Origin: a virus
Taxonomy: Duplodnaviria; Caudoviricetes
Virus record (IMG/VR): IMGVR_UViG_3300005529_000044
Coordinates: 1-56,061 of that record
DNA length: 56,061 nucleotides
Strand: one strand, 5' to 3'
Shown piece after piece: positions 1 through 24,659 of the stretch. Position 1 is the stretch's first letter. Every line of letters starts with the position of its first letter. The notes under the pieces were generated by a model. That model was given only the letters and a program-made list of their open reading frames with translations, made no database searches and was not told where the DNA came from. Made by a program: the position numbers and the translations under genes.

Positions 1-934
1 TGGTGGCCGCAACGCCTGTGTCGGTTCGGGTCGATGTCCCGCCGTTGCGAACGGTGCACTGCCAGTTACCAGCGTTCGTCCACCCTCCGTTTGGGTCGAA
101 CTCGAGAAAAACTCCATCGGTCGGATCAGCGGCTGTGACGGAAGCGAATACACCCCAGTAACCCTTGACACTCACGATGGAGGGTAAGTTGAGGCGTGTG
201 CGAAAGTCGAAAGCGTGGAAGTTTGCCGCGGACACGAAATCAGAGAATGCTGTTCCTGCCGCTCCATCCCTCGCTGCTTTGAAAATCGTGCAGTAGTTAC
301 CGCTAGTGGCCCCTGTGTCGTACGATATCCCGGTAGCTTCTCCAGCGCTTGTCACACCCCCACCTCCGCCGCATACTGTTGCGCCGTCCTGCTGGAATAC
401 ACTCCATCCCACCGGATAGAAGTCGGTCTTCACGCCGTCGGAGTAGACGTGGGTGTACTTGGTCATGTCGAGAGGATCGAAACCGCCGCCGCTGGTTGCT
501 GGATTCTCCGGAGCCAGCAGCACGTATGCCGTGCACGTGCCCGAGCAGGGACCTACAACCTGGCCCACCACGTCGCCGCCGCTCGTGGGATAGGCGGTCG
601 AACCCGTATCGTGGCCCTTGCCGGCGGCCGTGCCTGAAATCTGGACGTAATGCTGCGCGGTGGCGGTTCCGTCCATGTCGAGCGGCACCACGCCAACCGA
701 TGCGGCCAGAGACTGGGTGTTCGGTCCGACGCCAGGTTGGCCGCCGATGATCACCCCCTTGAATCCGGCTGTGTCGCCCGCCGACATGATGACGGCATTG
801 CCGGAACTGTCCAGCTTGAAGAGCCGATTGATGGTCGTTCCGGTCGTGGTGGCATTGTTGACCGGATAGCTGATATACAGGCTCTGCGCGAAAGTCACAG
901 CAGCCAGGACCAGAAGCGTCGCCAGTGGTTTCAT
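1..934 (-). CDS. Signal-peptide-bearing fibre/receptor-binding-like protein, 5' part (runs off left edge)
   Basis: My translation: ATG at 934 overlaps the TGA of the upstream gene (ATGA). MKPLATLLVLAAVTFA|QSLYISYPV... stays open to position 1 (...WQCTVRNGGTSTRTDTGVAATT). Absent from the ORF track because it has no stop in the window. Confidence 0.8.
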   Translation of the reverse strand, partial: MKPLATLLVLAAVTFAQSLYISYPVNNATTTGTTINRLFKLDSSGNAVIMSAGDTAGFKGVIIGGQPGVGPNTQSLAASVGVVPLDMDGTATAQHYVQISGTAAGKGHDTGSTAYPTSGGDVVGQVVGPCSGTCTAYVLLAPENPATSGGGFDPLDMTKYTHVYSDGVKTDFYPVGWSVFQQDGATVCGGGGGVTSAGEATGISYDTGATSGNYCTIFKAARDGAAGTAFSDFVSAANFHAFDFRTRLNLPSIVSVKGYWGVFASVTAADPTDGVFLEFDPNGGWTNAGNWQCTVRNGGTSTRTDTGVAAT

Positions 935-2154
935 GATGGCCTCACTAGGGTAAAGTTGTAGGTCGTGCTCGGCGGATCGTTCGCGGTGCCGGTGAGATTG
1001 CAGACCTGTAGGCGGGCGTTTCCGTAGGCCGTGACCTTGGCTTCGGGAAAGACGCCATCCGCCAGTGCCGCCCCGTTCACGTACACGCGGTCGCCTGGAA
1101 ATGCATCCTTGACCGCAACGTCGACGGCTGTGCATGCTCCGTTCGCCGTGCTCGCGATATCGGCGACGGCGGATGCGTAGCCGATGTGGATGACCGAGAG
1201 CCCGTAGGGAACCGAACCGGATCCGGACCCCGCCGGCGCGGAGCAGCCGCTTGAGGCGTCGCTTAAATCCGCGCACCCCATTGTCCCGACCGTAAAGGGG
1301 CTGCCCGGCGAGGTTTGCTTCACCACCTGTGAGGTGCCGCCGGTGGCCGAGAAGTCCGTGGTGCCGCCAGGCAGAGTGAGAACGCTATTGCTGCCGGCAT
1401 TGGCGGCCGGCTTGATCTTGAGGGATCCGCTGTTCGCCCCTGGCAGATCCACGGACCCGCCATTCACCCCGGTCACGACCAGGTTGCCGAGCACCTGCGC
1501 GTTCGTTCCGTCCCAGACAAAGGTCTGATGCGAGCAGGCGTTCGCTGTCGTGTCGATGTCGCCGTGATTCGGGATGGTCGTCGGCCAGACAAAGGTGCGT
1601 CCGCCGGTGGCGTCTTCGCAGACATTGAAGGTCAGTAACTGGCCCGTGGAAGCGCCGGCCAGCGTACTTGAGGTGACGTTACCGGTCAGTGTGATCAGGA
1701 AGGACGTCGCTGTATTGGACGCCGCGGTGAAGGTCGGTGTGGCGCTGTAGGGGACCGTGGTGTACCCGGCCGGATTGCCCGACCCGCCGCCTCCCCCGCT
1801 CATCAGCGTCCAGGTATCGGCCGCCGTGCATCCGTACCAGTTCTGGCCGGCACTTCCGGCCGTGTTGAAAAATACCTCGCCGAGGTCACATTTGGCTGGA
1901 TTCGACGAGCCGATCTTGTGCGAGATGAATTGCCAGGCGTAGGAACTCGCTCCGGTTTGCGTGCACACATACACCTGGCTCGGGTTCGTGGCCGGGTTGT
2001 CGTAGCGCAGGTAGATCGCCCCGCGTTCTCCGGTGCTGTCGCAGGCGGTCGCAGGAGGAGCTCCGGCGCCTTCGAGGTACCGGATCGGCGGCTGGGCGAG
2101 CGCCGGAACTCCAAGTGCCAGCGTCAACCAAAATCGTTGCATGCCACGTTTCAT
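931..2154 (-). CDS. Signal-peptide-bearing tail-fibre-like protein with Cys-paired modules
   Basis: MKRGMQRFWLTLALGVPALA|Q; G/T/S-rich; P..C..GE.FF...GQN.Y.C....W module; ITLTGNVTSSTL...DATGGRTFVWP segment typical of phage fibre domains. Confidence 0.75.
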   Translation of the reverse strand: MKRGMQRFWLTLALGVPALAQPPIRYLEGAGAPPATACDSTGERGAIYLRYDNPATNPSQVYVCTQTGASSYAWQFISHKIGSSNPAKCDLGEVFFNTAGSAGQNWYGCTAADTWTLMSGGGGGSGNPAGYTTVPYSATPTFTAASNTATSFLITLTGNVTSSTLAGASTGQLLTFNVCEDATGGRTFVWPTTIPNHGDIDTTANACSHQTFVWDGTNAQVLGNLVVTGVNGGSVDLPGANSGSLKIKPAANAGSNSVLTLPGGTTDFSATGGTSQVVKQTSPGSPFTVGTMGCADLSDASSGCSAPAGSGSGSVPYGLSVIHIGYASAVADIASTANGACTAVDVAVKDAFPGDRVYVNGAALADGVFPEAKVTAYGNARLQVCNLTGTANDPPSTTYNFTLVRPS

Positions 2155-3350
2155 AGCAGCGGCCTCCAGGCGTAGGTATCGGCCGAATCTTTGAGGCAGA
2201 TCCGGAGCGTGTCGGCGACGCCAGCGCCTCCTTGGACCACCGTATATTTGCCGCGGGCCGAGCTGTCGCAGGTGCCCTCAGCCTGGTTGGCGATCGTCGG
2301 TCCGGTGATCGTCGGAGCGCTTAGGCTCGGCGTTATGATCGTCGGACTGGTCTGAAACAGAGCCGGCCCGGATCCGCTCTCATCGCTCAGAACGCCGGCG
2401 AGCTGGGCCGAGGTCGTCGTAGCGAACACGCTCAGATTGTTGGCGACGTAGGCGATGGTGCCGCCGGTGCCGAAGACGACGGTCGATCCGTCCGTGCCCG
2501 ACAAGGTCACCGTGTTTGAAGCCGTGAAGGTCTTGCCGTCTGCAATGGTGAGCGTCGCCGCGGTGGCCGGAGCGGTGATCGTGACTTTATTGACTGTGGT
2601 CGCCGTGGCCGCTCCGAGCGTCGGTGTCGTGAAACTCGGCGAGACCGCGCGCGCGATCGCGCCTGTGCCTGTGTTGGCCGTCACTGCCACGCCGTTTACC
2701 AGAAAGCTGTTGCCGGCGCCCGCCGTGTCGAACGTCTTGTTGGTCAGTGTATCGGTGGTCGCGCGGCCGACCAGTGTGTCGGTCGTGCTCGGCAGCGTGA
2801 GAGTCCCGGTGTTGACAATCGACCCGATCACCGGAGCGATGAGGGTCTTGTTGGTGAGCGTGTCGGTGGTATTCCGCGCCACGAGCGTGTCGGTGGCGTC
2901 GGGCAGCGTAAGCGCCCGCGTGCCAGTCGGCGTGCCGGTCAGTCCGATGTAGGTCGTTCCGTATATTCCGGTCCCGTAGAGGTATAGGTTGCGGACCGGC
3001 TTGAGCGTGCTGCCGATATCGATGCCGGACTGAAACAACAGCGCTGCGTTGACCGAGGTCGTCGCCAGATTATCGAGGGCCGCCGACGCGCCCCCAGCGC
3101 CGCTATTCAGTTGCTGCGTCCACACGTTCGCCGTGGCGCATTCGTAGAGGTTCTGCCCGGCGGTGGCGTCGGACTTGAAGAACAGTTCTCCCACGCCGCA
3201 GGTGCCAGGCAGGGCGGTCCCCACCTTGGTCGGCCTAGTGCTGATGGCGGCCGATGCATCCACCGCTCCGAGCGCCGAGGCGTCTGAGACGCTGCGCGTC
3301 TGCGCGATGAGCGCGGCCGCACAGAACACGAAGCTGGCAAGAACCTTCAT
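2151..3350 (-). CDS. Signal-peptide-bearing tail fibre protein
   Basis: Start re-called at MKVLASFVFCAAALIA|Q. Two DTLV.R.TTDTLTNKT fibre-shaft repeats; Thr-rich; Cys-paired modules at both ends. Confidence 0.78.
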   Translation of the reverse strand: MKVLASFVFCAAALIAQTRSVSDASALGAVDASAAISTRPTKVGTALPGTCGVGELFFKSDATAGQNLYECATANVWTQQLNSGAGGASAALDNLATTSVNAALLFQSGIDIGSTLKPVRNLYLYGTGIYGTTYIGLTGTPTGTRALTLPDATDTLVARNTTDTLTNKTLIAPVIGSIVNTGTLTLPSTTDTLVGRATTDTLTNKTFDTAGAGNSFLVNGVAVTANTGTGAIARAVSPSFTTPTLGAATATTVNKVTITAPATAATLTIADGKTFTASNTVTLSGTDGSTVVFGTGGTIAYVANNLSVFATTTSAQLAGVLSDESGSGPALFQTSPTIITPSLSAPTITGPTIANQAEGTCDSSARGKYTVVQGGAGVADTLRICLKDSADTYAWRPLL

Positions 3351-3360
3351 GGATCTGGTC

Positions 3361-3729
3361 TCAATTTGCTGGCTTGCCTTCAAGCGGTACGGCTGCGGGC
3401 TTGAGGACGCAGATGTATTCGCCCTTTTCGTTCTGTTGCACGTTGAACCTGTCCCCGCATTCCTTTTGCATCTGGGCACCAGCAGCTTGGAGCGCCTGGT
3501 AGGCCTGGGCCCGGTCGTCGACCAGCTTCCGCATGGGTTCGCTCAGCCACTCGCGAAAGGTCGCGTCCGCGCGCTGGTACGCCCCGGCGGCCTTCTCGTA
3601 GGCGTACTTGGCCGCGATACTGATCTGCGGGTCTGGCGGAGACTTGGGCTTAAACGTTCCGGTGCTGTTGTCATCCTCTGCGAGCATTGGCAGGGCCACC
3701 AGAGCCAGAATCACGATTGCGCATTTCAT
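3361..3729 (-). CDS. Small exported helical protein, possible fibre chaperone
   Basis: Start re-called at MKCAIVILALVALPMLA|E after a GGAGGAAGAG RBS. Helical middle with a C-terminal Cys pair; directly follows the main fibre gene. Confidence 0.6.
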   Translation of the reverse strand: MKCAIVILALVALPMLAEDDNSTGTFKPKSPPDPQISIAAKYAYEKAAGAYQRADATFREWLSEPMRKLVDDRAQAYQALQAAGAQMQKECGDRFNVQQNEKGEYICVLKPAAVPLEGKPAN

Positions 3730-3746: not shown

Positions 3747-6700
3747 TCAGAAAGCTGATAAAGCCGCCCGGAAGCGGGCCCCGCCGAGGCAGACCACGAC
3801 GAAGTCGTCCGAGGTCACCGCCAGCCATCCGTCACTGACGCCGGCGCAGACGATGCCCGTGCTCGCTCCGGTCGAGCGCGTATAGAAATTGCCCGTCGAT
3901 CCGATCCACACGTTCGATACCAGGCCGCCCACTGGGGTGTTGAGTGGCCCCAGGAAGTACCGGTTCGAATCGATCACCGCAGTGCCGTTGACGAGGTAGG
4001 GTGCCAGGCCCGTGCCGCCGGCCATATTGATCGATCCGCCGGCGGAGATATCGCCTTGCCCGTTGACGATGAATGCGCCGCCGTTGGCGGTGTAGGCGGT
4101 GGTGAGGCCCGTCACGGTGGAGTTGAAGGCCCCGCCGCTCGCTACGACGTTGACGAACGTGGCGTTGCGGCTCGTATCGATGACGGTCGTACCTCCGACG
4201 CGGTAGGTTCCGCCGTCGAGCGTTCCGGAAAAATCGGCGTCCTGCGTCCATAGCTTCAGCCAGCGGCCGCCCAGATTCGATCCGAGACTGTAGGTCGCGT
4301 TCAGCGACGGCGTGAGCGACCCGGTGACGGTCTGGGAAATGTCCAGCTCCCGGACCCAGGCCTTTCCCCACCGGAAGGCCGAGCTACCGAGAGTGTACAC
4401 GTTGGCGGCCTGTGGGTTCACGTTTCCGTTGAAGTTGAAGAGCGTGGGATTGCCTCCGGAGAGCCGATCGTCCACCTGCAGCACGTAGGTTCCGGAGGAA
4501 TTCCGGAGTCCGACGACGTGAATTACCCCGCCGATCCCTTGTCCCATCGTCCAGTCGAAGAAATCGCTGACGGCGTCCGGCGTGCCGAGTTGGGTTCGTA
4601 GGAACCCGGCATCCACCGTTCCGCCGAAGTTGCCGTTCCGGAAGTATGCCGCGCCCCCGCTGTTCAGGCCGACATCGTTGGTCGTCGCCCCGGCCAGGCT
4701 GGCGGTCGCGCCGAAATTCTGCTGGCTGGTGAAGCTGTTGGTGATGTTCGTCCCGGCGATGATGTAGCTTGCGTTCTGTGGCGTGAGTGTGCGCTCCGTC
4801 GCGGTGCTGAATCCGTCCACCTCGAATCGCAGGAGTTTGGTGGCATCCAGGTTCCCGCGAACGATGTCTGTTGTATCCGGAACCGGCAAGCCGCCGCCGG
4901 CGCCGCATCCGCTACACGTCCCGGTCACGTCCAGGTCCGTCGCATAAATCTTGCGGATCCGCAGCGCGCTCGATCCGATGTCGTACGCATTCGTGGTCTG
5001 CGGCTGGATGTGGCCGAGGAATTGGAATAGCGTCGGGTCACCGGCGTTTCGACGGTCATCGATGTTGAGCACGTACTGGCCGCTCGAATTCCGGAGTCCC
5101 ACCACGTGCTGGACCCCGCCGATCCCCTGACCCATCGTCCAGTCAAAGAAATCCGTGGGCGCATCTGGAGTGCCGAGCTGCGTCCGCAGAAAGGCGGCGT
5201 CGACCGTGCGGCCAAAATTGCCGTCGCGGAAATACTTGCTGGCGAGCGCTTGGCCCACGTCGGCCACGGCGTCTCCGGCCAGGCTCGCAGTGTGCGTTTG
5301 CACCTGCGAAAACGTCTGCGCAATGTCCGTGCCCGCAATGGTGTAGCTGGCATCCTGCGGCGTCAGCGTCCGCGTGGTCGCCGTGGTGAAACCGTCTACC
5401 TCAAACCGCAACAGTTTGGTGGCGTCCGTCGATCCCTTGACCACGCTCGTCGTATCGACCACCGGCAGTCCGCCGCCTGATCCGCAACCGGTACACGTGC
5501 CGTTCACGGTGAGGTTGCCGACGATCAGGTTGCCGTTGCCGCCCATGTTGTCCCCGATCCGCAGCGTGCTGGCGGCGCTGCGAAACAATTGAGTGTCAGC
5601 CACCGGGAACGAGGCGAGATTCACGCCGCTATACCACAGGATGTAGGCATCCGAACTCATGTTGTAAGTCAGCGCCTGCGTGAGCGTCTTGACGGAGCCG
5701 CCGTTCACCGTATAGAGGCCGCCGCCCGCAAAGTAGGCCGTGCGGGTGCCCGCGTTATCGAGGAAGTCGACCACGGAATTGCCGGACTGGCTGGCGCCGT
5801 CCTGGATGGTGAGCGACGTAACCCCCGTGCCGGCCGTTTGATTCTTGAGCTTGAGAGAGCTGACCGCGTAGTTGGTCGAGGACAGGAAAACGTTGTTGTT
5901 CGCGTCGAGCGTCCACATGCTCGAGCCTCCTCCGCCCGTGCCTTTTGATTCGATCTGAACCAGTCCGGTAAACGGCGGATTGAAGCTGAAGACGAGGTCG
6001 CCTGACGTATTCCGCGTGTAAGAGCACAGCACGGCCAGCCTGGGCGTGGCGCTGTCGAAGCAATATGCTACGGGCAGCGTTCCCTGCCCGTGCGTAAGCG
6101 CCAACACGGTGAGCGACGTAGCCGAGGTGACCGTGGTCGTGTAGGGCGTGCCGGTGCCGCCGCCGCCCGAGCCGCATGTTTGAATCGACAGGTTTCCGGC
6201 GCCGTCGTCCGTCCAGCACCCTGCTTGGCTTTGGGAGGGCAACTTCCAGGTGACGTCGGCCGTCGCGGAATTGGGCGCGGAGAATCCGACATAATGCGCG
6301 GTCGCCGCCTGGTCCCGGAATCGCAGGTAGCCCGTGACGATCTCGTTTCCGGTCACCTGCAATTTTTGGCCGGTGGTGGGCGCTCCGCCCACTCCGACGT
6401 TTCCGGCAGAGTAGTAGATGTCGCTGCCCGAGATCACCCAGGGCTGCGTCCCGCCGCCACCCCCGCCGCCCGAACCGGACACGTTATCGACGGTCCAGAC
6501 GACGGCGCCCTGCGCGGTTCGCAGCTCGAGCTTATAGAGCGAACTTGACGAGAGCCAGATATCGGCGCGGCCCGCTCCGTCGAGGATGACCGGATTTGAA
6601 TTTGCCACGCTGGCACTCGAACTGGTGTAGGTGGCAAGCGGCGTGGTCGTGCCCGCCACGTAGGAGTAGAGCAAGCCTCCCACGATCGGGTTGCCGTTGT

Positions 6701-6910: not shown

Positions 6911-7720
6911 TCATCTTCCAACTCCGACGAGCGACAGGCCTCCGCTGGGCGGGCCGGCCGGCGGGGCCGCCTCGTCGACTGCGAGAAAGACTGAGGCGCA
7001 ATCGACGGCGGTGCCCGTCGGATCGCTGGTGGCCGTGGTTCCCGTTAAGATCCGAAACTCGCCGCAGGCGTCCATGTTGCTGGCCGCGCCGCCCGCGTTC
7101 GATCCGTTACACGTGCTCGAGGTGAAATTCGTGGTCGCCGTCCACGTTCCCCCCGTGGCTCGCTCGAGCGCCGTTGCCCGCAGGAACAGATGCTCGGAGT
7201 TGGTGAGGCTGCCTACCGTCATCGATCCCGGATCTGCGGCGTCGTTGGCGAGATCCTGCGGCGTGCCGACGATCGAAACAACGTTGCCAGAAGTGATCTG
7301 GAATTCCTTCACGACGATGCCGCGCGCCGTGAGCGAGGAATGGTTTAGCGTGATGGTGCTCGTGCCGGAAGTAAGCTGCGTCGCGAGCTTGGAATAGAAC
7401 AGGCACACGGTCGCCCCGCCGGCCGCCGCGCCCTGGCCGTTGGTGAATTCGCGTAGCTTGGTCCAGGTGTTCGAAGCCGAGTCCTGGACCGATGTGCAAT
7501 CGGTGCTGTTTCCGTCCGTCGTCTGGACGTTGTCCATGCCCGCCCACAAGATCGCGACCTTGCCGGCCTCCATATTTTCGGTTGCGACGGTGCATGTTAG
7601 CGACGTGCCGGCGGTCTTCGAATTGGCCGTGCAAGTTCCAGCGTTACCCGCCCCAGTTCCCCAAGCCGCATGTGCCGGGATCGCAATGATGGCTACAAGC
7701 GCCAGGGACAGTCTTTTCAC
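6911..7720 (-). CDS. Signal-peptide-bearing beta-rich virion accessory/fibre-tip-like protein
   Basis: GTG start at 7720 after GGAG. MKRLSLALVAIIAIPAHA|AW; several Cys; C-terminal PPAGPPSGGLSLVGVGR. Confidence 0.7.
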   Translation of the reverse strand: MKRLSLALVAIIAIPAHAAWGTGAGNAGTCTANSKTAGTSLTCTVATENMEAGKVAILWAGMDNVQTTDGNSTDCTSVQDSASNTWTKLREFTNGQGAAAGGATVCLFYSKLATQLTSGTSTITLNHSSLTARGIVVKEFQITSGNVVSIVGTPQDLANDAADPGSMTVGSLTNSEHLFLRATALERATGGTWTATTNFTSSTCNGSNAGGAASNMDACGEFRILTGTTATSDPTGTAVDCASVFLAVDEAAPPAGPPSGGLSLVGVGR

Positions 7721-9823: not shown

Positions 9824-9829
9824 GGTGAT

Positions 9830-16765: not shown

Positions 16766-16769
16766 CGGT

Positions 16770-17624: not shown

Positions 17625-18079
17625 TCGCGTTTACTCAGTCCGAAATATAACACGGCGTGGAGCTTTTGTTTTTTGCGCCAGGAATCTGGATCGCGGCCCC
17701 ATTGGCTGAAGCCCGCGGCGATCGCGAGTTTGCGCGCCAGGCGATTGTACTCAGGCACCGCCGTAACGATGCGTTCGCACGATGTGTTGTCGAACGTCCA
17801 CCGTGCCATCTCCCGCGCCGCCGTCACAGCCCGCGCGCCCCAGGCGTTCGGCAAAAGGCATGTGTGCGCTTCCCAGGTCACGCTGTTCTTCGGGCGAAAC
17901 TCAAACAGCCCCAGCAGTTCGGAGCCGTCCCACACCAGCATGTAATGAATCTCGGGATGGTCCACCGGTTGAAATTGCGCCGCGGGCGGCATGCCGTCGT
18001 CGCCGAGCCAGGGGTAAATTTTGGGGTGCGTGATGATCTGGCGGATCAGTGCCACGTCTGTAGACCGCTCGAATCTCAC
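17612..18079 (-). CDS. GNAT-fold acetyltransferase-like protein (DUF2824-like)
   Basis: WEAHTCLLP..WG and VPEYNRLARKLA..AGF motifs; conserved position just upstream of the ejection genes. Confidence 0.8.
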   Translation of the reverse strand: MRFERSTDVALIRQIITHPKIYPWLGDDGMPPAAQFQPVDHPEIHYMLVWDGSELLGLFEFRPKNSVTWEAHTCLLPNAWGARAVTAAREMARWTFDNTSCERIVTAVPEYNRLARKLAIAAGFSQWGRDPDSWRKKQKLHAVLYFGLSKRECRP

Positions 18080-19779
18080 GCCAGCACCGGTTGCCCGCTC
18101 ACGCTTGAGCTGGCCGGGTCCTTCAAAAAATGTCCGGCCCCGCCGCCACCGAGCAGATGATTGTTCCAGATCTTATTGACCGCGGCGGCGGTCCAGCCCG
18201 CGCCGGTCTCCTCGATACAATAATGGCCTCCGCCGTACTCGATCGTGTTTCCCTCGATGCGGTTGTCAAGGCAGAGCAGCTCGTTGCCCGCCCCGCCGGC
18301 GGCTGAGAAAAGCTGGATCGGCGCGGCCGAAGCATCCGCCCGGTGATAGATGGTGTTCTGGGCGCACCGGCATTGCTTGGAATATCCCATCACGATGGCG
18401 CTCACCCCGAAGTTCACCAGCGTATTGTCGAGGAAGGCGAGCAGGACGCTCCCGCCGTTCTGCTGCGAGTTGCCGGCGTTGATGCCGGTCGATGTGTTCA
18501 CGCCGTTCTGGTTCGGACCGAATAACCCGCAGCGGTCGGTTACATAGTCGCTGTCGCCTGGCTCCGGATTCTGGCCGACGTTTGAATGGATGGTCGCCTT
18601 GCGGTGGCCGTCGGTGTCGATGAAACTGCCATTCATCGACATCCCGACGTTTTTCGAATACTCGATGTTTTCTGAAAATCCTCCGTCGATGGCGGTCGCA
18701 AACAGACCGGCCAGATACTTGGGCTCGGCCTGGTCGACGTCGGTCTGGGTCATATAGCCCACGCGGTGGAGCTTGTTGCCGATCGCCGAGCCGACGCGGA
18801 CGTTGCCGACCAGAATCCCATCGAGGCCGATGTCCTCGAAATCGTTGAAGTCGCAGTGAACGCGCACATGCCGCGCATCGAAGCCCATGGTGTGACCCCA
18901 GAGGCAGTTGCCGGTCACGCGGCGCCAGTGGCAGCCGCTGACTTTGAGGCCCTTGACGGATGAGAGCTTGCCCTGCGCCGCCCGCCCATCCATTCTCCAG
19001 AACAGGCCTCCGGTCCAGGAGCCGTAGGTCTTGTCGGCCGGGTTGGTGCCAAAGCGGTGCGGACGGTTGTTTTTGAACCACCAGTCGAGCACCTCGGCAT
19101 CGGAGATATCGGCCGTGTCGGCGTCAAATAAAATTGCATAGCCGCCGGTGTGCTCGATCCATCCGGCGCGAAAGCGGATCCCGGAGCAGCCCGGATGCAC
19201 CCAGATGCTCGTGTTGGCGGTGAGCAAGGCGTGCATCGGATCGGATCCGAAGTCGGTGTAGAGCAGATCGGTCGCCACAGTGGTTGCGCCGTCGATGCGC
19301 AGATTCTCGAAAGCCACGTTCTGGACGTTGGTCAGGTTGAACAGCCCGCGGCCCGCCGGTAGTGCGCCGCCACGCCTAAAAGCGGAATTGTATCCCAGGC
19401 CGAGGATCGACACGTTCGAGGGCACGTCCACGTCAAGAATGTCATAGGGCTGCTCCTGCGGCGGAACCCATAGCACGCCTCCGCCTTGGCCGGTGATCCA
19501 GTCGAAAGCGGCCTTGAGGTTGCGCGTGTTGGCATCGGCGGCGCTGCCGGCCACCAGGCCAAAGTCGCGAACGTCGGCCAGCAGCGGCGGGAACTTGTCG
19601 CGGAGCGCCGCCATCGCGCTGGTGATCAGGCCATACCACTTTTGCCAGTCGGCCGAAAACGCCGCCTGCTGCAGATACTTGTCGAACTCCGGACTGCCGC
19701 TGCGGTTTAGGCCCGGAAAGCGGCTTGCGCCGAAAATCGGCGAACGTAGCGGCGCGGGATCGGCCGGAAGCTGGATCAA
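18076..19779 (-). CDS. Tailspike/depolymerase with right-handed beta-helix (pectate-lyase-3-like); no signal peptide
   Basis: TTG start overlaps the gp10-like stop. DVRDFG....AD.NT...KAAFD...GGGVLWVP motif followed by Asn/Gly-rich rungs. Confidence 0.82.
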   Translation of the reverse strand: MIQLPADPAPLRSPIFGASRFPGLNRSGSPEFDKYLQQAAFSADWQKWYGLITSAMAALRDKFPPLLADVRDFGLVAGSAADANTRNLKAAFDWITGQGGGVLWVPPQEQPYDILDVDVPSNVSILGLGYNSAFRRGGALPAGRGLFNLTNVQNVAFENLRIDGATTVATDLLYTDFGSDPMHALLTANTSIWVHPGCSGIRFRAGWIEHTGGYAILFDADTADISDAEVLDWWFKNNRPHRFGTNPADKTYGSWTGGLFWRMDGRAAQGKLSSVKGLKVSGCHWRRVTGNCLWGHTMGFDARHVRVHCDFNDFEDIGLDGILVGNVRVGSAIGNKLHRVGYMTQTDVDQAEPKYLAGLFATAIDGGFSENIEYSKNVGMSMNGSFIDTDGHRKATIHSNVGQNPEPGDSDYVTDRCGLFGPNQNGVNTSTGINAGNSQQNGGSVLLAFLDNTLVNFGVSAIVMGYSKQCRCAQNTIYHRADASAAPIQLFSAAGGAGNELLCLDNRIEGNTIEYGGGHYCIEETGAGWTAAAVNKIWNNHLLGGGGAGHFLKDPASSSVSGQPVLA

Positions 19780-21179
19780 GCGACCTCCGCATAGCCGTCG
19801 ATGAGCGTTGCCCTGCAGGGATCGCTCACGGTGAACTCGTAGACGCGATCGCGCGCGCGGCCCAGGCGATGCCAGTGCACGCGGGTGCGATACTCGCCCA
19901 GCCGGCCCAAAGAACGCTGGTGCTCGTTGCCCCACGTTTTCCCGCCGTCGTTCGACATGCGCATCACGATCTTTGGATCGTAGCCGGGCTGATCGGCCGC
20001 CACGTCCAGACCGACGCCGCGTTCGACTTCCACCTCGAGTTCCCGGTGGCTCAGAAACTTGTTTTCGCGCGAGATGTGCGGTGTGATCCGCATCCGTCGC
20101 AGCGGCGCGCCGGCGTCGTCCAAAAATTCGGGGCTTTGCTGGTAGATTTTGCCCGAGGCGAAGTCTCCGACAAAATGCTTGTTCCACACAAAAGCGTGGC
20201 AGCGCGCGCGATCGAGCTGATAGCGGCCCCGTTGCGGCGACCACAGGCCCCGCTCGTGCCAGGCGATCTCGCGCGGCAGCAGCGCATCGTATACGAAACT
20301 GCGCTCGGCCGAAGGAAAGTGGCAGACGAGGAAGAAGTGGCCGTGATCCTCGTAGGAGAAAAATTCCGCGTCATCCAGGCGCGCGAAGCTCGCAATCGCG
20401 TCCTCGATGGCGTGGTTGCTGATCCGCACCGGCTGGTACCCGTCGGCGCGCCAGACCACACTCTGGCCGCGCGCTGTCGATCCCAGCCAGGCTGGCCCGG
20501 TCGGCAGAATCGCAATCGCCCAGGGCGAGGCCACGCCCTGTTCGATAAAGGCGGCATCGATGCGCTCAAACGGAAACAGCGCCGCCCCGGTGTCCTGATG
20601 CACTTCAATCGAGTCGAACCCGAAGATCCAGAGCAGCCGGTGATCGGCGAGCAGCGCAGCGATGTAGTCCGGATAGCCTTCCTTGTCCGCCACGTCGAGC
20701 GGATCCCAGGCCGCGCCATCGAGCGAAATCCGGTATTGCTTCGAATTCGGAGTCGAGGCGATATAGTAGCCATCGATAAAGGTCCCCGTCGAAGCCGGCA
20801 CGACCGGCACCACCACCACGCCGTTGGCGAGATAGCCCTGCCCCTCGCTCGTGATGAAGATCGAATTGCCGTTGAGCACCATGCGCACCGGATTCGGCCC
20901 ATTGCCCACGTCGCCCAGGACAGTGAAACTGCCGTCCTCGAAGACTTCACACAGCTTGGCGCCGGCCACGGCGAACAGCCGCTTGTTGCCGGCGAGCAAG
21001 CCGCGCACCGGCTGGTCCGGCAGCGTGCACAAAAGCTTGCGTCCGGGCGTCGGGACGAGCCGGATGGAGCTTTTGCCTGCCGGAGCTTCGACCAGTTCGG
21101 GATACCAGTTGACCGTGCGTTCTCCATCCGCAGCCTTGGCTTCGAGCTCGTAGGTTCCGCCGATGATCGGGATTCTCAA
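19776..21179 (-). CDS. P22 gp10-like packaged-DNA stabilisation / tail hub protein
   Basis: TTG start after GGAGG. TVNWYPE...L.PTPG, DGYYI, RISNHAIE, SNDGGKTW and GEYRTRV.W.RLG.ARDRV motifs. Confidence 0.9.
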   Translation of the reverse strand: MRIPIIGGTYELEAKAADGERTVNWYPELVEAPAGKSSIRLVPTPGRKLLCTLPDQPVRGLLAGNKRLFAVAGAKLCEVFEDGSFTVLGDVGNGPNPVRMVLNGNSIFITSEGQGYLANGVVVVPVVPASTGTFIDGYYIASTPNSKQYRISLDGAAWDPLDVADKEGYPDYIAALLADHRLLWIFGFDSIEVHQDTGAALFPFERIDAAFIEQGVASPWAIAILPTGPAWLGSTARGQSVVWRADGYQPVRISNHAIEDAIASFARLDDAEFFSYEDHGHFFLVCHFPSAERSFVYDALLPREIAWHERGLWSPQRGRYQLDRARCHAFVWNKHFVGDFASGKIYQQSPEFLDDAGAPLRRMRITPHISRENKFLSHRELEVEVERGVGLDVAADQPGYDPKIVMRMSNDGGKTWGNEHQRSLGRLGEYRTRVHWHRLGRARDRVYEFTVSDPCRATLIDGYAEVA

Positions 21180-21373
21180 TTGAGGCCCAGCCTCCAGTTG
21201 ATTTCCTGATTCGTTTCGTCCAGCTCGATAAACAGACGCGCGTATGGTTCCTGGATCTGTTGGCCGCACCCGGCGCAATGCACCGGGCCGCAGTGCGTAA
21301 CCTTCATCGAAACCAGATGGCTCGCGCGGATCTGCCCTGTTGCCCGGATTTCTCGCGGCTTGAACTCTTCCAT
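21176..21373 (-). CDS. Small hypothetical protein with CxxC
   Basis: Tightly coupled to both neighbours; HCAGCG. Confidence 0.55.
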   Translation of the reverse strand: MEEFKPREIRATGQIRASHLVSMKVTHCGPVHCAGCGQQIQEPYARLFIELDETNQEINWRLGLN

Positions 21374-21375
21374 GG

Positions 21376-22140
21376 CTACCGATAGCTCCCCAGGCGCACG
21401 TCGAACCGGTTGTGCCGGCCGTAGCGGAACCGCGTGTAGCCGACGTCGTTGATGAGTGTGGTGCGATTTGCCGCCGCGTTCTTGGCCTTGATGACCGCCT
21501 TGGCGCGTTTCGCTTCCTCGACGACGTAGGGCTGCAATTGCGATTTGGGGTAGAGCACGGCCAGCTCGAGCGCCAGATTGTATTCAAGGGCGTGCTGGTA
21601 GCCGGGCATCAGCCGGATGGCTGCGTTTGGATCCGCAAACTGCTGGACCGATTCCGGGAAATAGAGCGCCACGGTATTGACCGTCGTCGGGATCGGCCAG
21701 GGCGTGATGACGCCCAGGTCCGCCTCGGGGCGGTAGTAGAGCGCCAGCGGCTCAGATGCGAGCTCGCTGTTGTTCATGATGCCCGAGTACTCTTCGGGTG
21801 TGGTGACCCACAGCGGAACCTCGATCGATTGCGTGTTGGGCAGGATGAGCCCGGCGCGCAGCAGATCGACGGGCGGGCCGCCTGCGGTCACCCAGTCGGG
21901 GTTATCCGCCTGGTCGCCGATCGTGTACGACGGCTTGTTCGGCGTCAAGGGAAACGTCGCGCGGTTTTCGGCCCATACGAGCAGCTCTTCCAGTTTCCAG
22001 GAATCGATCAGAGAATTGAGCGTCTGGACGTCCTCGATTGCGAGCGAGTTCGTATTGGTCGGCTGATGGTACTTCCGGCCCGGAGCAGTGGTGATTCGCG
22101 CCAGGCGGCGGGCCTTCATCGCGATGTCGAGCGGCGTCAC
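21376..22140 (-). CDS. P22 gp4-like head-tail adaptor, paralogue 2
   Basis: LNSLIDSW, YTIG, WPIP, PGYQHALEYNLALELA. Confidence 0.82.
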   Translation of the reverse strand: MTPLDIAMKARRLARITTAPGRKYHQPTNTNSLAIEDVQTLNSLIDSWKLEELLVWAENRATFPLTPNKPSYTIGDQADNPDWVTAGGPPVDLLRAGLILPNTQSIEVPLWVTTPEEYSGIMNNSELASEPLALYYRPEADLGVITPWPIPTTVNTVALYFPESVQQFADPNAAIRLMPGYQHALEYNLALELAVLYPKSQLQPYVVEEAKRAKAVIKAKNAAANRTTLINDVGYTRFRYGRHNRFDVRLGSYR

Positions 22141-22149
22141 GGGAATTCT

Positions 22150-22911
22150 CTATTGGCCTGGCGCTGCGGCGCCCTGGGCTCCGCCCATCGGCACGCCCTG
22201 CGACGGTCCGTTGAGCGTCTGCGAGGCGGCGAGCGCTCCGATCGCTTGCAGGTTCGCGTTTTGCAGGAGCTGCTTGGCGTCTTTGGCGATTGCGATGAGC
22301 GCGCCCGCGCGATTCTGGTCAAGCTCGCCTGAGGGAAAGGACGGAAGCAGCTCGATTGCGAGCGCGGCGCGGATCGCCCGTTCGTAGCCCGCCGGGAACA
22401 GAAATGGATCCGTCACTAGGGCGAACTGCGCCAGCACTTCCCAGCCGAAGACCTCAAGCAGCGGCGCTGTGATCGGGATCGGATGAACGTGGACCGCCGA
22501 ACGGCCGTCGGCTGTCAGGAAATCGGTGTCGAGGTAGACCTTGTCGGGAGCGAGCTGCGTCGCAGCCAAGTCACGGATCGCCGCCCACTGCTTCGAAGTC
22601 AGGATCGAGACTTCGCTCCGGAACCCCTGCGTCCCCTGAAGAATGCAAGCGGCCGTTTCCCACAGGATCGGGCGCGGCACGTTGAAGTCGGCCGCGTTCG
22701 GCCCGATCTCATAATCCTGCTTGTTCGCCTGGAGCTGGAGCGTGCGGCGCTTCTTGGTGTAGAGGTTGGTTCCGTCGAGACTCCAGCTTGCTAAAAGCGC
22801 GTTCAGCCGGTTGAGGCCGACAGCGAGATCCTCGGGCGCGCTCTCTTCGCCCGCGGCGACGACTGTGATGTCCTGGAGCGCGCCGGTTATGATATCGCCC
22901 ACGGAGGGCAT
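22150..22911 (-). CDS. P22 gp4-like head-tail adaptor, paralogue 1
   Basis: DIITGALQDI.V.A.GE, LNALLASW, YEIG, HPIP, PAGYERAIRAALAIEL. Confidence 0.85.
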   Translation of the reverse strand: MPSVGDIITGALQDITVVAAGEESAPEDLAVGLNRLNALLASWSLDGTNLYTKKRRTLQLQANKQDYEIGPNAADFNVPRPILWETAACILQGTQGFRSEVSILTSKQWAAIRDLAATQLAPDKVYLDTDFLTADGRSAVHVHPIPITAPLLEVFGWEVLAQFALVTDPFLFPAGYERAIRAALAIELLPSFPSGELDQNRAGALIAIAKDAKQLLQNANLQAIGALAASQTLNGPSQGVPMGGAQGAAAPGQ

Positions 22912-23487: not shown

Positions 23488-23907
23488 CTAGTTCCGCTCA
23501 TCGTAGGACACGATGATCTTATCGCCCGTATTCGAACCGCCAACCCAGAAGCGCTGAAGATCGATGCCGCCATTGGTCGCAGCCGTCGTTCCCGGGCCGC
23601 CGTCGGTGTAGGTGCCGCCGGGAGCGGTCGCCGTCGCCGGGGCGAGCTCGGCGGTGAGCTGGCCGGAAACGGTTGGATCCGGGGTAACTCCCACCGGAAT
23701 ACCGTCCATCACGTAGCCGCGGCCGGTGCCGCCCGTTACCATCTGCACGAAGATCCGGTTGGCAATCTTCGGCTGCGCCGAAATCTGGACGGGCGTCCCG
23801 GCAGTGATGGTGATCGTGATATTGACACGCCGCGCAAAGCCCGGTGCTGCGCAAATACAAAGGGCCGCCGCGAGCGCAAGCAGGCGGCGGCCGGTCACTC
23901 CGAACAT
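23488..23907 (-). CDS. Signal-peptide-bearing small beta protein, putative capsid decoration
   Basis: MFGVTGRRLLALAAALCICAAPGFA|RRV; second gene after the coat gene; start uncertain (23898-23922). Confidence 0.65.
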   Translation of the reverse strand: MFGVTGRRLLALAAALCICAAPGFARRVNITITITAGTPVQISAQPKIANRIFVQMVTGGTGRGYVMDGIPVGVTPDPTVSGQLTAELAPATATAPGGTYTDGGPGTTAATNGGIDLQRFWVGGSNTGDKIIVSYDERN

Positions 23908-23936
23908 AGGACGGAACTCCATCGTTTTTGAGGAAG

Positions 23937-24659
23937 CTAGTACGACGGATTCCACTTCGTGCCGTCCCAGCATTCAAGAAGCGCCTTGTTGACGACCGAA
24001 GTGGTAGCGAGCGAAATGTTGCCGCTCGTTCCGGTGCTGCCCAGACCGTCAGGAATCAGCACCAGGCAGCCGCCGGGTTGCCAGCCGGCTGGCACGGTGA
24101 TCGTATTGACCGCCGTGGTGCCGGTGACATGGAACATCGTGCCGGTGGCCGCGATGGTCGAAGCCGAGGCGACGGCCGAACCGAGCACGGCACCCGGCGC
24201 TCCTCCGACGCCTGAGGCGGTGAGCACGAACTGCCCGCCCAGGCAATCGTACTTATTCCCGCTCGGGAACACGATCACCGGGACGTACGCCAGATTGCCG
24301 CGCGTGCAACTTCCCGAAGGTTCGGCGCGGTTGATGTTGCTGGTAAATGCCGCTGGGAAGCCCCGGTACACGGTCGCGCCGGATAGATGGCCGGCGGCGG
24401 CTGTCCCGTTGCGCCCGCGGTTCACGGTTACGGTGGTGCCACTCACGGTCAGGACCTGCATCAACTCGCGGTCGATCAGCAGCAGGACCTGCGACTGGGC
24501 GGTTTGCGAGGTGATGCCGGTGGCCGAGGCGACGGCGAAGGTAGTTTGGCTCGCCGTGATCGCGGCCGACAAGGTCGTTGTGCCGATCGCGGTTTGGCCC
24601 GAGACAAGGCCTACTGCCAGCAGCAGCGCGGCCAGGATGGTCATCAGTTTCGATTTCAT
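23937..24659 (-). CDS. Signal-peptide-bearing putative capsid decoration/head-fibre protein
   Basis: AGGAGG RBS; MKSKLMTILAALLLAVGLVSG|QT. TTLSAAI...IDRELM.V..V.G..VTV.RG..GT.AA.H..GA.V motif seen in phage structural proteins; immediately after the coat gene. Confidence 0.75.
   Translation of the reverse strand: MKSKLMTILAALLLAVGLVSGQTAIGTTTLSAAITASQTTFAVASATGITSQTAQSQVLLLIDRELMQVLTVSGTTVTVNRGRNGTAAAGHLSGATVYRGFPAAFTSNINRAEPSGSCTRGNLAYVPVIVFPSGNKYDCLGGQFVLTASGVGGAPGAVLGSAVASASTIAATGTMFHVTGTTAVNTITVPAGWQPGGCLVLIPDGLGSTGTSGNISLATTSVVNKALLECWDGTKWNPSY

What the first reader, a model, noticed from the sequence alone, without database searches (positions are those of the whole stretch)
1..24659. 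Tailed phage whose fibres and capsid-decoration proteins carry Sec signal peptides: candidate two-compartment virion assembly
Seen: a basic/hydrophobic/small-x-small leader on genes starting at 934, 2154, 3350, 3729, 6815, 7720, 8028, 23907, 24659, 52228, 52713 and 55881, and internally in the 9823 gene. TerL, portal, scaffold, coat, both gp4 paralogues, gp10, the tailspike and the ejection proteins have none. Most of the exported set also has paired Cys. Established: P22-like virions, including their fibres, normally assemble in the reducing cytoplasm, while disulfides form in the periplasm. Inference: this phage stockpiles oxidatively folded appendages in the periplasm and adds them to cytoplasmic particles only when the holin breaks the inner membrane, or after lysis. 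An alternative is that lysogens display them on the cell surface. I cannot confirm novelty without a literature search.
Basis: partly seen in the sequence, partly recalled or inferred. Interest (0 to 1): 0.95.

Follow-up and report, generated by a model that had tools for sequence, protein, structure and literature searches.

The report
Phage tailspikes and fibres with export signals
A P22-like soil phage puts export signals of its host's own kind on its tailspike, its fibres and two genes next to the coat gene, so these outer virion parts probably fold outside the cytoplasm and join the particle only at lysis, which has not been shown for any tailed phage.

Summary
All 12 gene starts carry a basic/hydrophobic/small-x-small leader, and the 9823 gene has an internal one at ATG 9457. 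Leaders occur on 12 of 30 late and lysis genes and 0 of 34 early genes. Two cultured relatives have 2 of 69 and 1 of 44.

The leaders look like real Sec/signal peptidase I signals:
- 9 of 13 end in [AG]-Gln, as do 27 of 29 outer-membrane proteins of a Bryobacteraceae genome that holds a related prophage.
- In three families, homologues with and without a leader coexist, and the junction is exact.
- In the post-coat family, 66 of 68 leader-bearing members have 2 or 4 Cys; 14 of 15 leaderless members have 0 or 1.

The exported proteins carry virion-attachment domains. Gene 6815 has a solved-type tailspike head-binding domain directly after its leader. The related prophage repeats the pattern with six consecutive leader-bearing fibre genes.

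Export is well supported. Joining of the particle at or after lysis is inferred, at about 50%. Five literature searches found no precedent.

The parts
1..934 (-). Fibre-like gene with a Sec-type leader (junction A|Q); runs off the window start
   Evidence: No Pfam or PHROG family. 5 Cys in the 294 mature residues seen.
931..2154 (-). 407-aa exported protein, leader junction A|Q, 10 mature Cys. Shares a 48-aa Cys-bearing N-terminal segment with the 3350 gene.
2151..3350 (-). 399-aa exported fibre-like protein, leader junction A|Q. Residues 236-345 match phrog_6002, 'virion structural protein'.
3361..3729 (-). 122-aa exported small protein with a strong ribosome-binding site; junction A|E (no Gln)
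3747..6815 (-). 1022-aa tailspike: 24-residue leader (junction G|Q), then a tailspike head-binding domain at residues 36-113
   Evidence: PDB 7eeq_A 'Tailspike head-binding domain', E 5.9e-10, and 9vyg/9vyh tail spike chains. Residues 25-112 align with residues 1-89 of the tailspikes of PBR31 and P26218. No alternative start.
6911..7720 (-). 269-aa exported protein, junction A|A, 7 mature Cys
7738..8028 (-). 96-aa exported Cys-rich mini-protein (9 Cys in 74 mature residues), junction G|Q
8006..9823 (-). 605-aa repeat-fibre protein. Residues 1-122 form a charged, helix-like segment. A leader or signal anchor follows from the ATG at 9457 (junction A|Q), then 'VDGS...TQPVSGT'-type repeats.
   Evidence: In its family, 41 of 120 listed homologues have a leader-like N-terminus.
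10183..18079 (-). Leaderless internal and ejection genes, almost free of Cys: 1780-aa internal virion protein (15525), 435-aa gene (16810), gp7-like (17624), gp14-like (18079)
18076..19779 (-). Leaderless 567-aa right-handed beta-helix (pectate-lyase-like) protein, 9 Cys; its TTG start overlaps the stop of the gp10-like gene
   Evidence: No PHROG or PDB sequence match.
19776..22911 (-). Tail hub without leaders: gp10-like head-closure gene (phrog_578, E 5e-100) and two gp4-like paralogues (22140, 22911)
23488..23907 (-). 139-aa exported jelly-roll protein, second gene after the coat gene; leader contains Arg-Arg, junction A|R
   Evidence: (9 of 25 family members carry a leader, 16 do not).
23937..24659 (-). 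240-aa exported fibre-like protein directly after the coat gene. Leader junction G|Q, then an anchor beta-barrel and a widespread C-terminal domain; 4 Cys.
24697..31178 (-). Leaderless head genes: P22-type coat, scaffold, P22-type portal and TerL, plus an 83-87-aa ORF (29613) with a weak leader-like N-terminus
53584..55881 (-). 765-aa exported protein (junction A|D), 20 mature Cys, C-terminal He_PIG Ig domain; last gene before the holin
51686..53735 (-). Lysis cassette: holin (PF05105), leaderless 124-aa endolysin-like gene, then two leader-bearing genes (52713, 52228) where relatives encode spanins
37798..39096 (-). Tyrosine integrase, so the phage is temperate
   Evidence: PF00589, E 1.8e-17.

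Best explanation
The window is the roughly 56-kb genome of a temperate P22-like podophage. Its host is most likely an Acidobacteriota bacterium of the Bryobacteraceae kind.

The particle core has no leaders and is built in the cytoplasm as usual. The core is terminase, portal, scaffold, coat, two gp4-like proteins, a gp10-like protein and the ejection proteins.

The outer appendages each carry a cleavable Sec / signal peptidase I leader of the host's own type. They are the canonical tailspike (6815), a run of fibre-like proteins (9823, 7720, 3350, 2154, 934, 55881) and two genes after the coat gene (24659, 23907). Most of these leaders expose an N-terminal Gln.

These proteins are exported and fold in the oxidising periplasm, with disulfides and probably an N-terminal pyroglutamate. 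They meet the DNA-filled particles only when the holin opens the inner membrane, or in the lysate, and bind there through their unchanged attachment domains.

Shown: the leaders, their host-type junction, their conservation, the link between leader and Cys in one family, the attachment domains, and the repeat of the pattern in a related prophage. Inferred: export itself, disulfide formation, and the place and time of joining.
For: 1. Leaders sit at all named starts, most with ribosome-binding sites. Genes 6815 and 7720 have no usable downstream start.
2. 9 of 13 leaders end in [AG]-Gln. In the Bryobacteraceae genome that holds a related prophage, 27 of 29 N-terminal CarboxypepD_reg proteins end the same way. 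That genome also has a glutaminyl cyclase (E 1.9e-99) and two DsbA-like genes.
3. A matrix trained on those host leaders ranks the phage leaders near the top of 349 ORFs.
4. Gene 6815 residues 36-113 are a solved-type tailspike head-binding domain. Residue 25, the predicted mature N-terminus, aligns with residue 1 of the leaderless tailspikes of cultured relatives. All 29 deposited phage records with this domain match from query residue 16-37 onward, that is without the leader.
5. The head-binding domain shows no relaxed constraint. Leader-to-leaderless identity is 51.2% against 54.5% among leaderless members. Gene 6815 scores 139 bits against a profile built only from leaderless members, whose median is 140.6.
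6. Post-coat family: 66 of 68 leader-bearing members have 2 or 4 Cys, and 14 of 15 leaderless members have 0 or 1. A leaderless orthologue sits in the same place after the coat gene in L050.
7. 23907 family: 9 of 25 members carry a leader and 16 start exactly at the mature N-terminus.
8. The related Bryobacteraceae prophage has six consecutive leader-bearing, Cys-rich genes after its ejection genes. One is its head-binding-domain tailspike. It has no large leaderless fibre candidate. A third P22-like contig, L187, has a leader-bearing tailspike with 21 Cys.
9. The exported genes are packed in the late operon, with gaps of -23 to 95 bases.
10. Outer parts of P22-type particles can be added after assembly. 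Dec binds mature P22 capsids in vitro (PMC6449081, passages read). Tailspike addition to P22 heads in vitro is recalled (Israel, Anderson and Levine 1967), not seen here.
Against: - No trained signal-peptide predictor was available. My rule is simple and also fires on non-coding frames.
- No experiment shows export, cleavage, disulfides or presence in virions.
- The phage has a leaderless 567-aa beta-helix protein in the tail module, so it may not depend on the exported set for adsorption.
- That protein has 9 Cys and gene 23907 has none after cleavage, so Cys content is not a clean marker.
- Among 80 IMG/VR loci with the head-binding domain, only 1 truly has a leader. The 29 of 150 among protein representatives is inflated, because the query contained the leader.
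- A bacterial tailspike-like enzyme, WceF, is exported and keeps a P22-like head domain without being a virion part (PMC7949094, passages read).
- The host is inferred from homologues in metagenome-assembled genomes, not known.
- Whether capsids and periplasmic proteins meet efficiently before dilution is unknown.
Confidence: 0.5

Rival explanations
1. The proteins are exported but never join the virion. They act as free periplasmic or secreted enzymes and adhesins on the infected cell's envelope or slime. They might thin exopolysaccharide so that progeny escape, mask or destroy receptors, or help lysis.
For: - WceF of Pantoea is a Tat-exported, tailspike-like glycanase that keeps a P22-like head domain (PMC7949094, passages).
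- Bdellovibrio uses signal-peptide-bearing, phage-fibre-like adhesins (PMC10769870, passages).
- P. gingivalis phages encode five unknown Q-rule signal-peptide proteins, read by the authors as modifiers of the host surface (PMC10367356, passages).
- The window has a leaderless beta-helix protein that could serve as the virion's own spike.
- Cultured relatives have one leader-bearing gene between tailspike and lysis genes.
- Gene 55881 sits next to the holin and shows no attachment domain.
Against: - Gene 6815 is the only gene in the window with the lineage's head-binding domain, and that domain is as conserved as in leaderless virion tailspikes.
- Leader-bearing and leaderless orthologues occupy the same syntenic slot after the coat gene.
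- The related prophage has no large leaderless fibre or spike at all.
- Four families would each have had to change job while keeping their attachment ends.
Confidence: 0.28
2. Mixed fate. Export is partial or slow, so a cytoplasmic fraction (uncleaved, or made from another start) builds the virion while the exported fraction has a second job.
For: Nothing direct. It would reconcile conserved attachment domains with ordinary cytoplasmic assembly. Several genes have in-frame GTG or TTG codons inside or after the leader.
Against: - Genes 6815 and 7720 have no alternative start in their first 36 codons, and the others lack ribosome-binding sites.
- The Cys pairs that go with the leader argue that the functional form folds in an oxidising place.
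- An uncleaved hydrophobic leader in front of the head-binding domain would probably disturb binding (inference).
Confidence: 0.1
3. Lysogens express these genes and display the products on the cell surface, as lysogenic conversion or adhesion, independent of virion production.
For: The phage is temperate (integrase). Streptococcus mitis displays phage tail-fibre-like PblA and PblB on its surface (recalled, not read here).
Against: - The genes lie inside the late operon on the same strand, with gaps of -23 to 95 bases.
- Promoter-like sites in 1-16000 number 2 against 2.0 expected, and terminator-like sites 13 against 15.7 expected. This scan covers sigma-70-type sites only.
- The two post-coat genes sit between the coat gene and the gp4-like genes.
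Confidence: 0.05
4. The hydrophobic N-termini are not export signals. They are chance features of GC-rich coding sequence, mis-called starts, or cytoplasmic-face membrane tethers.
For: The simple rule fires on many non-coding frames of this 63% G+C sequence. No trained predictor was run.
Against: - Leaders are absent from 34 early genes and from the core virion genes.
- Homologues keep the leader's features while its sequence drifts: 64 of 68 end in [AGS]-Gln.
- The junction matches the leaders of the proxy host.
- Leaderless orthologues begin exactly at the predicted cleavage point.
- With the positive charge at the N-terminus, the protein body should lie outside the membrane (established positive-inside rule).
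Confidence: 0.04

Closest known systems
Tailspikes of P22-like podophages with the 'PxPK-QFFD-NG-PL-GGKLYSY-AGTTTP' head-binding domain (Xanthomonas phage PBR31 gp34, Rhodoferax phage P26218 gp26; PDB 7eeq, 9vyg/9vyh)
   Same: The N-terminal head-binding domain is the same (44-52% identity). The place in the genome is the same, after the ejection genes and before the lysis cassette. The portal, coat and gp10 lineage is the same.
   Different: The cultured members start at the domain itself and have no leader (29 of 29 records). Gene 6815 has 24 extra N-terminal residues that form a Sec-type signal with a Gln junction.
Pantoea stewartii WceF, a bacterial tailspike-like glycanase (PMC7949094)
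   Same: A trimeric tailspike-type protein with an N-terminal P22-like head domain that is exported from the cytoplasm by a cleavable signal.
   Different: WceF has a Tat signal, lies in a chromosomal exopolysaccharide cluster, and resembles the P22 head domain in structure only. Gene 6815 has a Sec-type leader without a twin-arginine motif, lies in a phage late operon, and its domain is about 50-60% identical in sequence to virion tailspikes.
Bacteroidetes Q-rule for signal peptidase I substrates (PMC5837995, PMC10653852) and the Q-rule proteins of P. gingivalis phages (PMC10367356)
   Same: Cleavage exposes an N-terminal Gln. The proxy host has a glutaminyl cyclase gene. Phage genes follow the host's rule.
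   Different: The published rule is described as specific to Bacteroidetes (abstract), and 'Acidobacteria' does not occur in PMC5837995. Here the hosts appear to be Acidobacteriota. The P. gingivalis phage genes are of unknown function and were read as host-surface modifiers, not as tailspikes or fibres. Their supplementary gene table could not be seen.
Phage periplasmic proteins with signals: signal-peptide and SAR endolysins, spanins, T4 antiholin RI, T5 Llp, Cor
   Same: Phage-encoded late or lysis proteins that use the host Sec system. The two leader-bearing genes at 52713 and 52228 fit this ordinary class by position.
   Different: None of those is a virion appendage. The names Llp and Cor and their roles are recalled, not read here.
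Coat proteins of filamentous phages (Ff pIII, pVIII)
   Same: Virion proteins made with Sec-type leaders and assembled outside the cytoplasm (recalled textbook knowledge).
   Different: Those phages assemble the whole particle at the membrane and extrude it without lysis. Here an icosahedral, DNA-packaging tailed phage with a holin and an endolysin would add only its outer parts outside the cytoplasm.
Phage L Dec and lambda gpD decoration proteins (PMC6449081)
   Same: Outer proteins that bind only mature capsids and can be added from outside in vitro (passages). Genes 24659 and 23907 lie right after a P22-type coat gene.
   Different: Dec and gpD have no leader. No sequence match was found. 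For gene 24659, fold likeness is to tail-fibre, tailspike and capsid-spike anchor barrels. For gene 23907, it is to generic jelly rolls.

Membership tests
Sec / signal peptidase I (type I) signal peptide | Positively charged n-region, uncharged hydrophobic h-region of about 9-18 residues, and small residues at -3 and -1 | tested here: met
   All 12 named starts plus the ATG at 9457 pass a simple n-h-c rule. The rule is home-made and permissive.
Sec / signal peptidase I (type I) signal peptide | Recognised by a trained predictor (SignalP6, DeepTMHMM) | not testable with these tools
   No such predictor was on hand. As a substitute, a matrix from 28 leaders of the proxy host put the phage leaders at ranks 1-4, 7, 8, 12, 21, 22, 25, 26 and 30 of 349 ORFs.
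Sec / signal peptidase I (type I) signal peptide | Export and cleavage shown by experiment | not testable with these tools
   Needs PhoA or BlaM fusions and N-terminal sequencing.
Q-rule signal peptides | Gln at +1 of the cleavage site | tested here: met
   9 of 13 phage leaders, 64 of 68 leader-bearing homologues of gene 24659, 24 of 29 leader-bearing tailspike N-termini, and 27 of 29 proxy-host proteins.
Q-rule signal peptides | Host encodes a glutaminyl cyclase | tested here: met
   PF05096 match, E 1.9e-99, in G001, the Bryobacteraceae genome that holds the related prophage. G001 is a proxy, not the proven host.
Q-rule signal peptides | Host belongs to Bacteroidetes, as the rule was published | tested here: not met
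   Of the 16 genome loci with the family, 10 lie in genomes titled Acidobacteriota lineages (Bryobacteraceae, Acidobacteriaceae, Terriglobia, Blastocatellia), including the only full-length match. One short contig is titled Bacteroides sp..
P22-lineage tailspike | N-terminal head-binding domain homologous to solved ones | tested here: met
   Gene 6815 residues 36-113 against 7eeq_A residues 13-91, E 5.9e-10; also 9vyg and 9vyh.
P22-lineage tailspike | Encoded in a genome with a P22-type portal, a gp4-like gene and a gp10-like gene | tested here: met
   PF16510 E 2e-127, phrog_578 E 5e-100, phrog_637/12985.
P22-lineage tailspike | Protein begins at the head-binding domain (no leader) | tested here: not met
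   Gene 6815 has 24 extra residues. 115 of the best 150 representatives and 29 of 29 deposited phage records have none.
P22-lineage tailspike | Present on the virion tail | not testable with these tools
   Needs virion proteomics or cryo-EM.
Capsid decoration / cement protein | Gene next to the coat gene | tested here: met
   Genes 24659 and 23907 follow the coat gene with gaps of 37 and 29 bases. The order is kept in L001, L018, L019, L021, L023 and L050 for the first gene.
Capsid decoration / cement protein | Fold like a known decoration protein | tested here: inconclusive
   Gene 24659: the N-domain matches tailspike and tail-fibre anchor barrels, plus a VP1 capsid chain and the Pa223 capsid spike. 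Gene 23907: a jelly roll with best Z 8.2 to Ena pilus subunits and Z 7.0 to the KHP40 cement protein, which is in the range of common folds.
WceF-like bacterial exported tailspike-like glycanase | Tat signal and a location in a chromosomal polysaccharide cluster | tested here: not met
   Gene 6815 has no twin-arginine motif in its leader and lies in a phage late operon.

The most novel reading that the evidence does not exclude
A whole lineage of P22-like phages of Acidobacteriota builds its virions in two compartments. DNA-filled capsids with a bare tail hub are made in the cytoplasm. Every outward-facing part (tailspike, side fibres, head fibre) is exported by Sec, folded with disulfides and capped with pyroglutamate in the periplasm. 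These parts snap onto the particles only when the holin breaches the inner membrane, or in the lysate. The ease with which orthologues gain or lose the leader would then mean that the last steps of tailed-phage assembly are indifferent to compartment.
Probability: 0.45. Interest if true: 0.92.

Novelty: new variant of a known kind. Interest (0 to 1): 0.8.

Why it matters
Textbook assembly of tailed phages takes place wholly in the cytoplasm. A tailspike with a canonical head-binding domain behind a host-adapted export signal challenges that view. The signal recurs in a related prophage and in many metagenomic homologues.

If the exported parts do end up on virions, four things follow:
- The final assembly step can take place outside the cytoplasm.
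- Phage appendages can carry disulfides and blocked N-termini suited to soil.
- Lysis timing becomes part of morphogenesis.
- Annotation rules that treat a signal peptide as evidence against a structural role would need revision. One example of such a rule is in PMC6199706 (passage).

If the exported parts do not end up on virions, these phages have turned their own tailspikes into secreted enzymes, which is also new.

Either way the question is directly testable in any lysogen of this lineage. As a by-product, the Gln junction seems to hold in an Acidobacteriota genome, outside the phylum for which it was described.

Tried and rejected
Searches that found nothing:
- Close relatives by coat protein: none in viral contigs or genome contigs.
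- The best deposited phage portal is only 34% identical.
- No tRNA genes. No terminal repeat, and joining the contig ends does not keep the 934 gene in frame.
- Pfam and PHROGs gave nothing for most exported proteins.
- PDB sequence searches gave nothing for 3350, 2154, 9823 and the beta-helix protein.
- The Atlas gave no usable feature hit for 55881.
- The listing of cluster members gave no organism names for 10 leader-bearing tailspike representatives, only contig sizes of 1.5-66 kb.

Inconclusive results:
- The fold of 23907 is a generic jelly roll. A decoration role is neither supported nor excluded.
- My first classification of the tailspike hits by a motif pattern failed, leaving 86 of 150 unclassed. 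I replaced it with alignment offsets.
- The first 21-position host matrix could not score leaders shorter than 18 residues. I redid it with 15 positions.
- Two of three 'leader+' calls among the 80 IMG/VR tailspike loci were false on inspection.

Ideas rejected:
- Alternative downstream starts as a source of leaderless isoforms.
- Separate promoters for the exported block (sigma-70-type only).

Literature: five searches found no report of a tailed-phage tailspike or fibre with a signal peptide that joins the virion. Only open-access papers and bioRxiv are covered.

Not run:
- Complex prediction, because a pass would rest on likeness to solved P22-type tails and would not separate the rival readings.
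- The look-up of sequencing runs and read laying.
- A scan of metagenome contigs.
- DsbB was not searched. VKOR was not found in G001, which does not show absence in an incomplete genome.

Full report
**What the window is.** The 56,061-base window is the whole record, a virus contig of 63% G+C. It has no tRNA genes and no terminal repeat. Nearly all late genes lie on the minus strand.

Family searches confirm a P22-like head and tail core:
- TerL at 31178-29622.
- P22-type portal at 29365-27206 (PF16510, E 2e-127).
- Scaffold at 27172-26033.
- P22-type coat at 25953-24697 (PF11651, E 2e-40).
- Two gp4-like paralogues at 22911 and 22140.
- A gp10-like head-closure gene ending at 19776 (phrog_578, E 5e-100).
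- A gp14-like gene at 18079 and a gp7-like ejection gene at 17624.
- A 1780-aa internal virion protein at 15525.

A lysis cassette lies at 53735-51686, with a holin (PF05105) and an endolysin-like gene. An integrase at 39096-37798 makes the phage temperate.

The gene order matches cultured relatives such as Xanthomonas phage PBR31 and Rhodoferax phage P26218: ejection genes, then tailspike, then lysis genes. So the window is a permuted genome. The block 9823 to 934 continues across the contig ends into 55881 and then the holin.

**The observation.** The internal leader of the 9823 gene starts at an in-frame ATG at 9457. It follows 122 charged, helix-like residues, so the protein is either an N-in signal-anchored protein or is made from the inner start. 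A further weak candidate lies at 29613.

Most starts have a ribosome-binding run upstream. In 6815 and 7720 there is no other in-frame start codon in the first 36 codons, so the leader cannot be avoided.

My rule is permissive. It fires at 62 start positions over all six frames. At the 5' ends of genes supported by third-position composition it fires on 12 of 30 late or lysis genes and on 0 of 34 early genes (p = 2.6e-5). It fires on 2 of 69 and 1 of 44 annotated genes of PBR31 and P26218.

**Are these real export signals?** Four lines say yes.

First, the junction. 9 of 13 leaders end in [AG]-Gln. Homologues of the post-coat gene occur mostly in genomes titled Acidobacteriota: 10 of 16 loci, including the only full-length one, which lies in a Bryobacteraceae genome. 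In that genome (G001), 27 of 29 N-terminal CarboxypepD_reg outer-membrane proteins end their leaders in x-[AGSP]-Gln. G001 also has a glutaminyl cyclase gene (E 1.9e-99) and two DsbA-like genes. A 15-position matrix built from 28 of those host leaders ranked the phage leaders 1-4, 7, 8, 12, 21, 22, 25, 26 and 30 among 349 ORFs of the window. This is the 'Q-rule' published for Bacteroidetes (PMC5837995, abstract and term search), seen here in another phylum.

Second, conservation. Of the 120 listed homologues of gene 24659, 68 were classed as leader-bearing and 64 of those end in [AGS]-Gln, although the leader sequences differ. 15 were leaderless and 37 could not be classed by my motif.

Third, exact junctions. 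Leaderless members of three families begin where the leader-bearing ones are predicted to be cut.

Fourth, cysteines. In the 24659 family, 66 of 68 leader-bearing members have 2 or 4 mature Cys, while the 15 leaderless ones have 0 (nine), 1 (five) or 2 (one). The Cys columns of the leader-bearing members are replaced by other residues in the leaderless ones. In the 23907 family, the only two members with a Cys pair carry leaders. Within the window, mature exported proteins have a median of 1.70 Cys per 100 residues against 0.40 for 15 leaderless late proteins (p = 0.0013).

**Are they virion parts?** Gene 6815 is the key case. Residues 36-113 match the solved 'Tailspike head-binding domain' 7eeq_A (residues 13-91, E 5.9e-10) and the tail spike chains of 9vyg and 9vyh.

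Searched against 1.84 billion representatives, its first 130 residues hit 22,136 proteins. Of the best 150:
- 115 begin at the domain itself.
- 29, the query included, have a leader abutting it, 24 of them with the Gln junction.
- 6 are other forms.

The share of leader-bearing hits is inflated because the query held the leader. Among the 80 best IMG/VR loci only one, L187, truly has a leader.

All 29 deposited phage records with the domain match from query residue 16-37 onward, that is without the leader. They belong to the same portal lineage, where a host is given it is proteobacterial, and several annotate the gene as tail spike, tail fibre or colanidase. PBR31 gp34 residue 5 and P26218 gp26 residue 1 align with residues 28 and 25 of gene 6815. 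Cleavage would therefore yield a protein collinear with ordinary tailspikes.

The domain is not decaying. Leader-to-leaderless identity is 51.2% against 54.5% among leaderless members. Gene 6815 scores 139 bits against a profile built from leaderless members only, whose median is 140.6 (the set was chosen by similarity, which is a caveat). No other gene in the window has this domain.

Gene 24659 lies 37 bases after the coat gene, and this order is kept in six related loci. One of them, L050, has a leaderless version in the same slot. Its model (pLDDT 90) has an N-terminal barrel like the anchor domains of tailspikes, tail fibres and two capsid-attached proteins. Its C-terminal domain is found in hundreds of viral contigs.

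Gene 23907 is a jelly roll with no decisive match.

The repeat region of gene 9823 belongs to a very large fibre family, in which 41 of 120 listed members have leader-like N-termini.

**Replication in a relative.** I read 38 kb downstream of the gp10-like gene of the prophage in G001. After leaderless, Cys-free ejection genes come six consecutive genes with leaders. They encode proteins of 542, 110, 844, 267, 676 and 1403 aa, with 10, 2, 22, 5, 10 and 26 Cys. The first is a tailspike with the same head-binding domain (55% identity). No large leaderless fibre or spike candidate is present. L187, a third P22-like contig, has a leader-bearing tailspike with 21 Cys. The pattern is therefore a trait of a lineage, not of one genome.

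**Results against the two-compartment reading.**
- The window encodes a leaderless 567-aa protein right after the gp10-like gene. By language-model features it looks like a right-handed beta-helix or pectate-lyase protein (score 0.97; a lead, not proof). It has 9 Cys.
- WceF shows that an exported tailspike-like enzyme can keep a head-like domain with no virion role.
- Cultured relatives each have one leader-bearing gene between tailspike and lysis genes, so a periplasmic protein at that spot is not unusual in itself.
- Genes 52713 and 52228 are in the lysis cassette, where such proteins are ordinary.
- Nothing here shows export, cleavage, disulfides or virion content directly.

**Mechanism and odds.** I put the odds that these proteins are exported by Sec at about 90%.

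I put at about 50% the odds that the exported tailspike, fibres and post-coat proteins are the virion's own outer parts and join the particle when the holin opens the membrane or afterwards. This reading is favoured by:
- the intact attachment domains;
- the shared syntenic slots of leader-bearing and leaderless orthologues;
- the lack of leaderless alternatives in the related prophage;
- the fact that outer parts of P22-type particles bind finished particles. Dec binds mature capsids in vitro (PMC6449081). Tailspike addition to heads in vitro is recalled, not read here.

The endolysin has no leader, so the holin must make holes that pass folded protein. Whether those holes pass capsids is unknown.

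The main rival is free exported enzymes and adhesins, at about 28%. Mixed fate is at about 10%, lysogen display about 5% and non-signals about 4%.

**Novelty.** Five full-text searches found no report of a tailed-phage tailspike or fibre made with a signal peptide. The nearest published items are:
- the Q-rule proteins of unknown function in P. gingivalis phages;
- WceF;
- the Bdellovibrio fibre adhesins.

One paper even uses the absence of signal peptides as support for a phage origin of tail-fibre-like proteins.

I file the finding as a new variant of a known kind: tailspikes and fibres, with export signals. If the two-compartment assembly is real, it would be a new mode of morphogenesis.

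Noticed in passing
G001 loci L097-L126 (proxy host genome); L209: The 'Bacteroidetes Q-rule' seems to hold in an Acidobacteriota (Bryobacteraceae) genome. 27 of 29 CarboxypepD_reg proteins have leaders ending x-[AGSP]-Gln, and the genome has a glutaminyl cyclase gene (PF05096, E 1.9e-99). The Q-rule paper does not mention Acidobacteria (term search).
   Followed up: partly
window 52225-52713 (-): The leader-bearing 162-aa protein in the spanin position of the lysis cassette contains an 'EEDH..PLELGG' stretch that I recall as HNH-nuclease-like. Pfam and PHROGs gave no hit. It could be a periplasmic nuclease rather than a spanin.
   Followed up: no
window 8006-9823 (-): The protein has a 122-residue charged, helix-like N-terminal part, then a signal-like segment, then fibre repeats. 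This is an N-in/C-out topology that would span the inner membrane. A few homologues (P0286, P0365, P0387) also have a long N-terminal part before a hydrophobic segment.
   Followed up: partly
window 7738-8028 (-): Exported 96-aa protein with 9 Cys in 74 mature residues. Its start overlaps the end of the 9823 gene by 23 bases. No family match.
   Followed up: no
L127 24674-25483 (PBR31 gp35); L128 15489-15998 (P26218 gp24): Cultured proteobacterial relatives each encode one leader-bearing protein between the tailspike and the lysis genes. PBR31 gp35 is annotated 'putative structural protein'. No sequence likeness to the window's proteins.
   Followed up: partly
window 21376-22911 (-): The gp4-like adaptor gene is duplicated (26% identity over 190 residues). 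The duplication is also seen in L001 and L021.
   Followed up: no
window 1-934 and 55890-56061: The 934 gene runs off the window start, and an ORF that is open at its 5' end sits at the other end. Direct joining does not keep the frame, so the contig is probably a few bases to some hundred bases short of a full circle. A cluster member of one window protein sits on a contig of 56,227 bases.
   Followed up: partly
L021 1224-6568: A related viral contig has two leader-bearing genes (623 aa, and 1212 aa with 30 Cys) upstream of its portal-coat block. One carries the Cys-bearing N-terminal motif shared by the window's 3350 and 2154 genes (57% over 60 residues).
   Followed up: no
window 10183-15525 (-): The 1780-aa internal virion protein has no Cys at all. 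It gives weak sub-threshold hits to a minor-tail-protein family and to a PBECR1 nuclease family.
   Followed up: no
window 23937-24659 (-), residues about 163-240: The C-terminal 80-residue domain of the post-coat protein recurs at 45-60% identity in at least 326 IMG/VR stretches and in proteins with unrelated N-terminal parts, many of them leader-bearing. It looks like a mobile distal module.
   Followed up: partly
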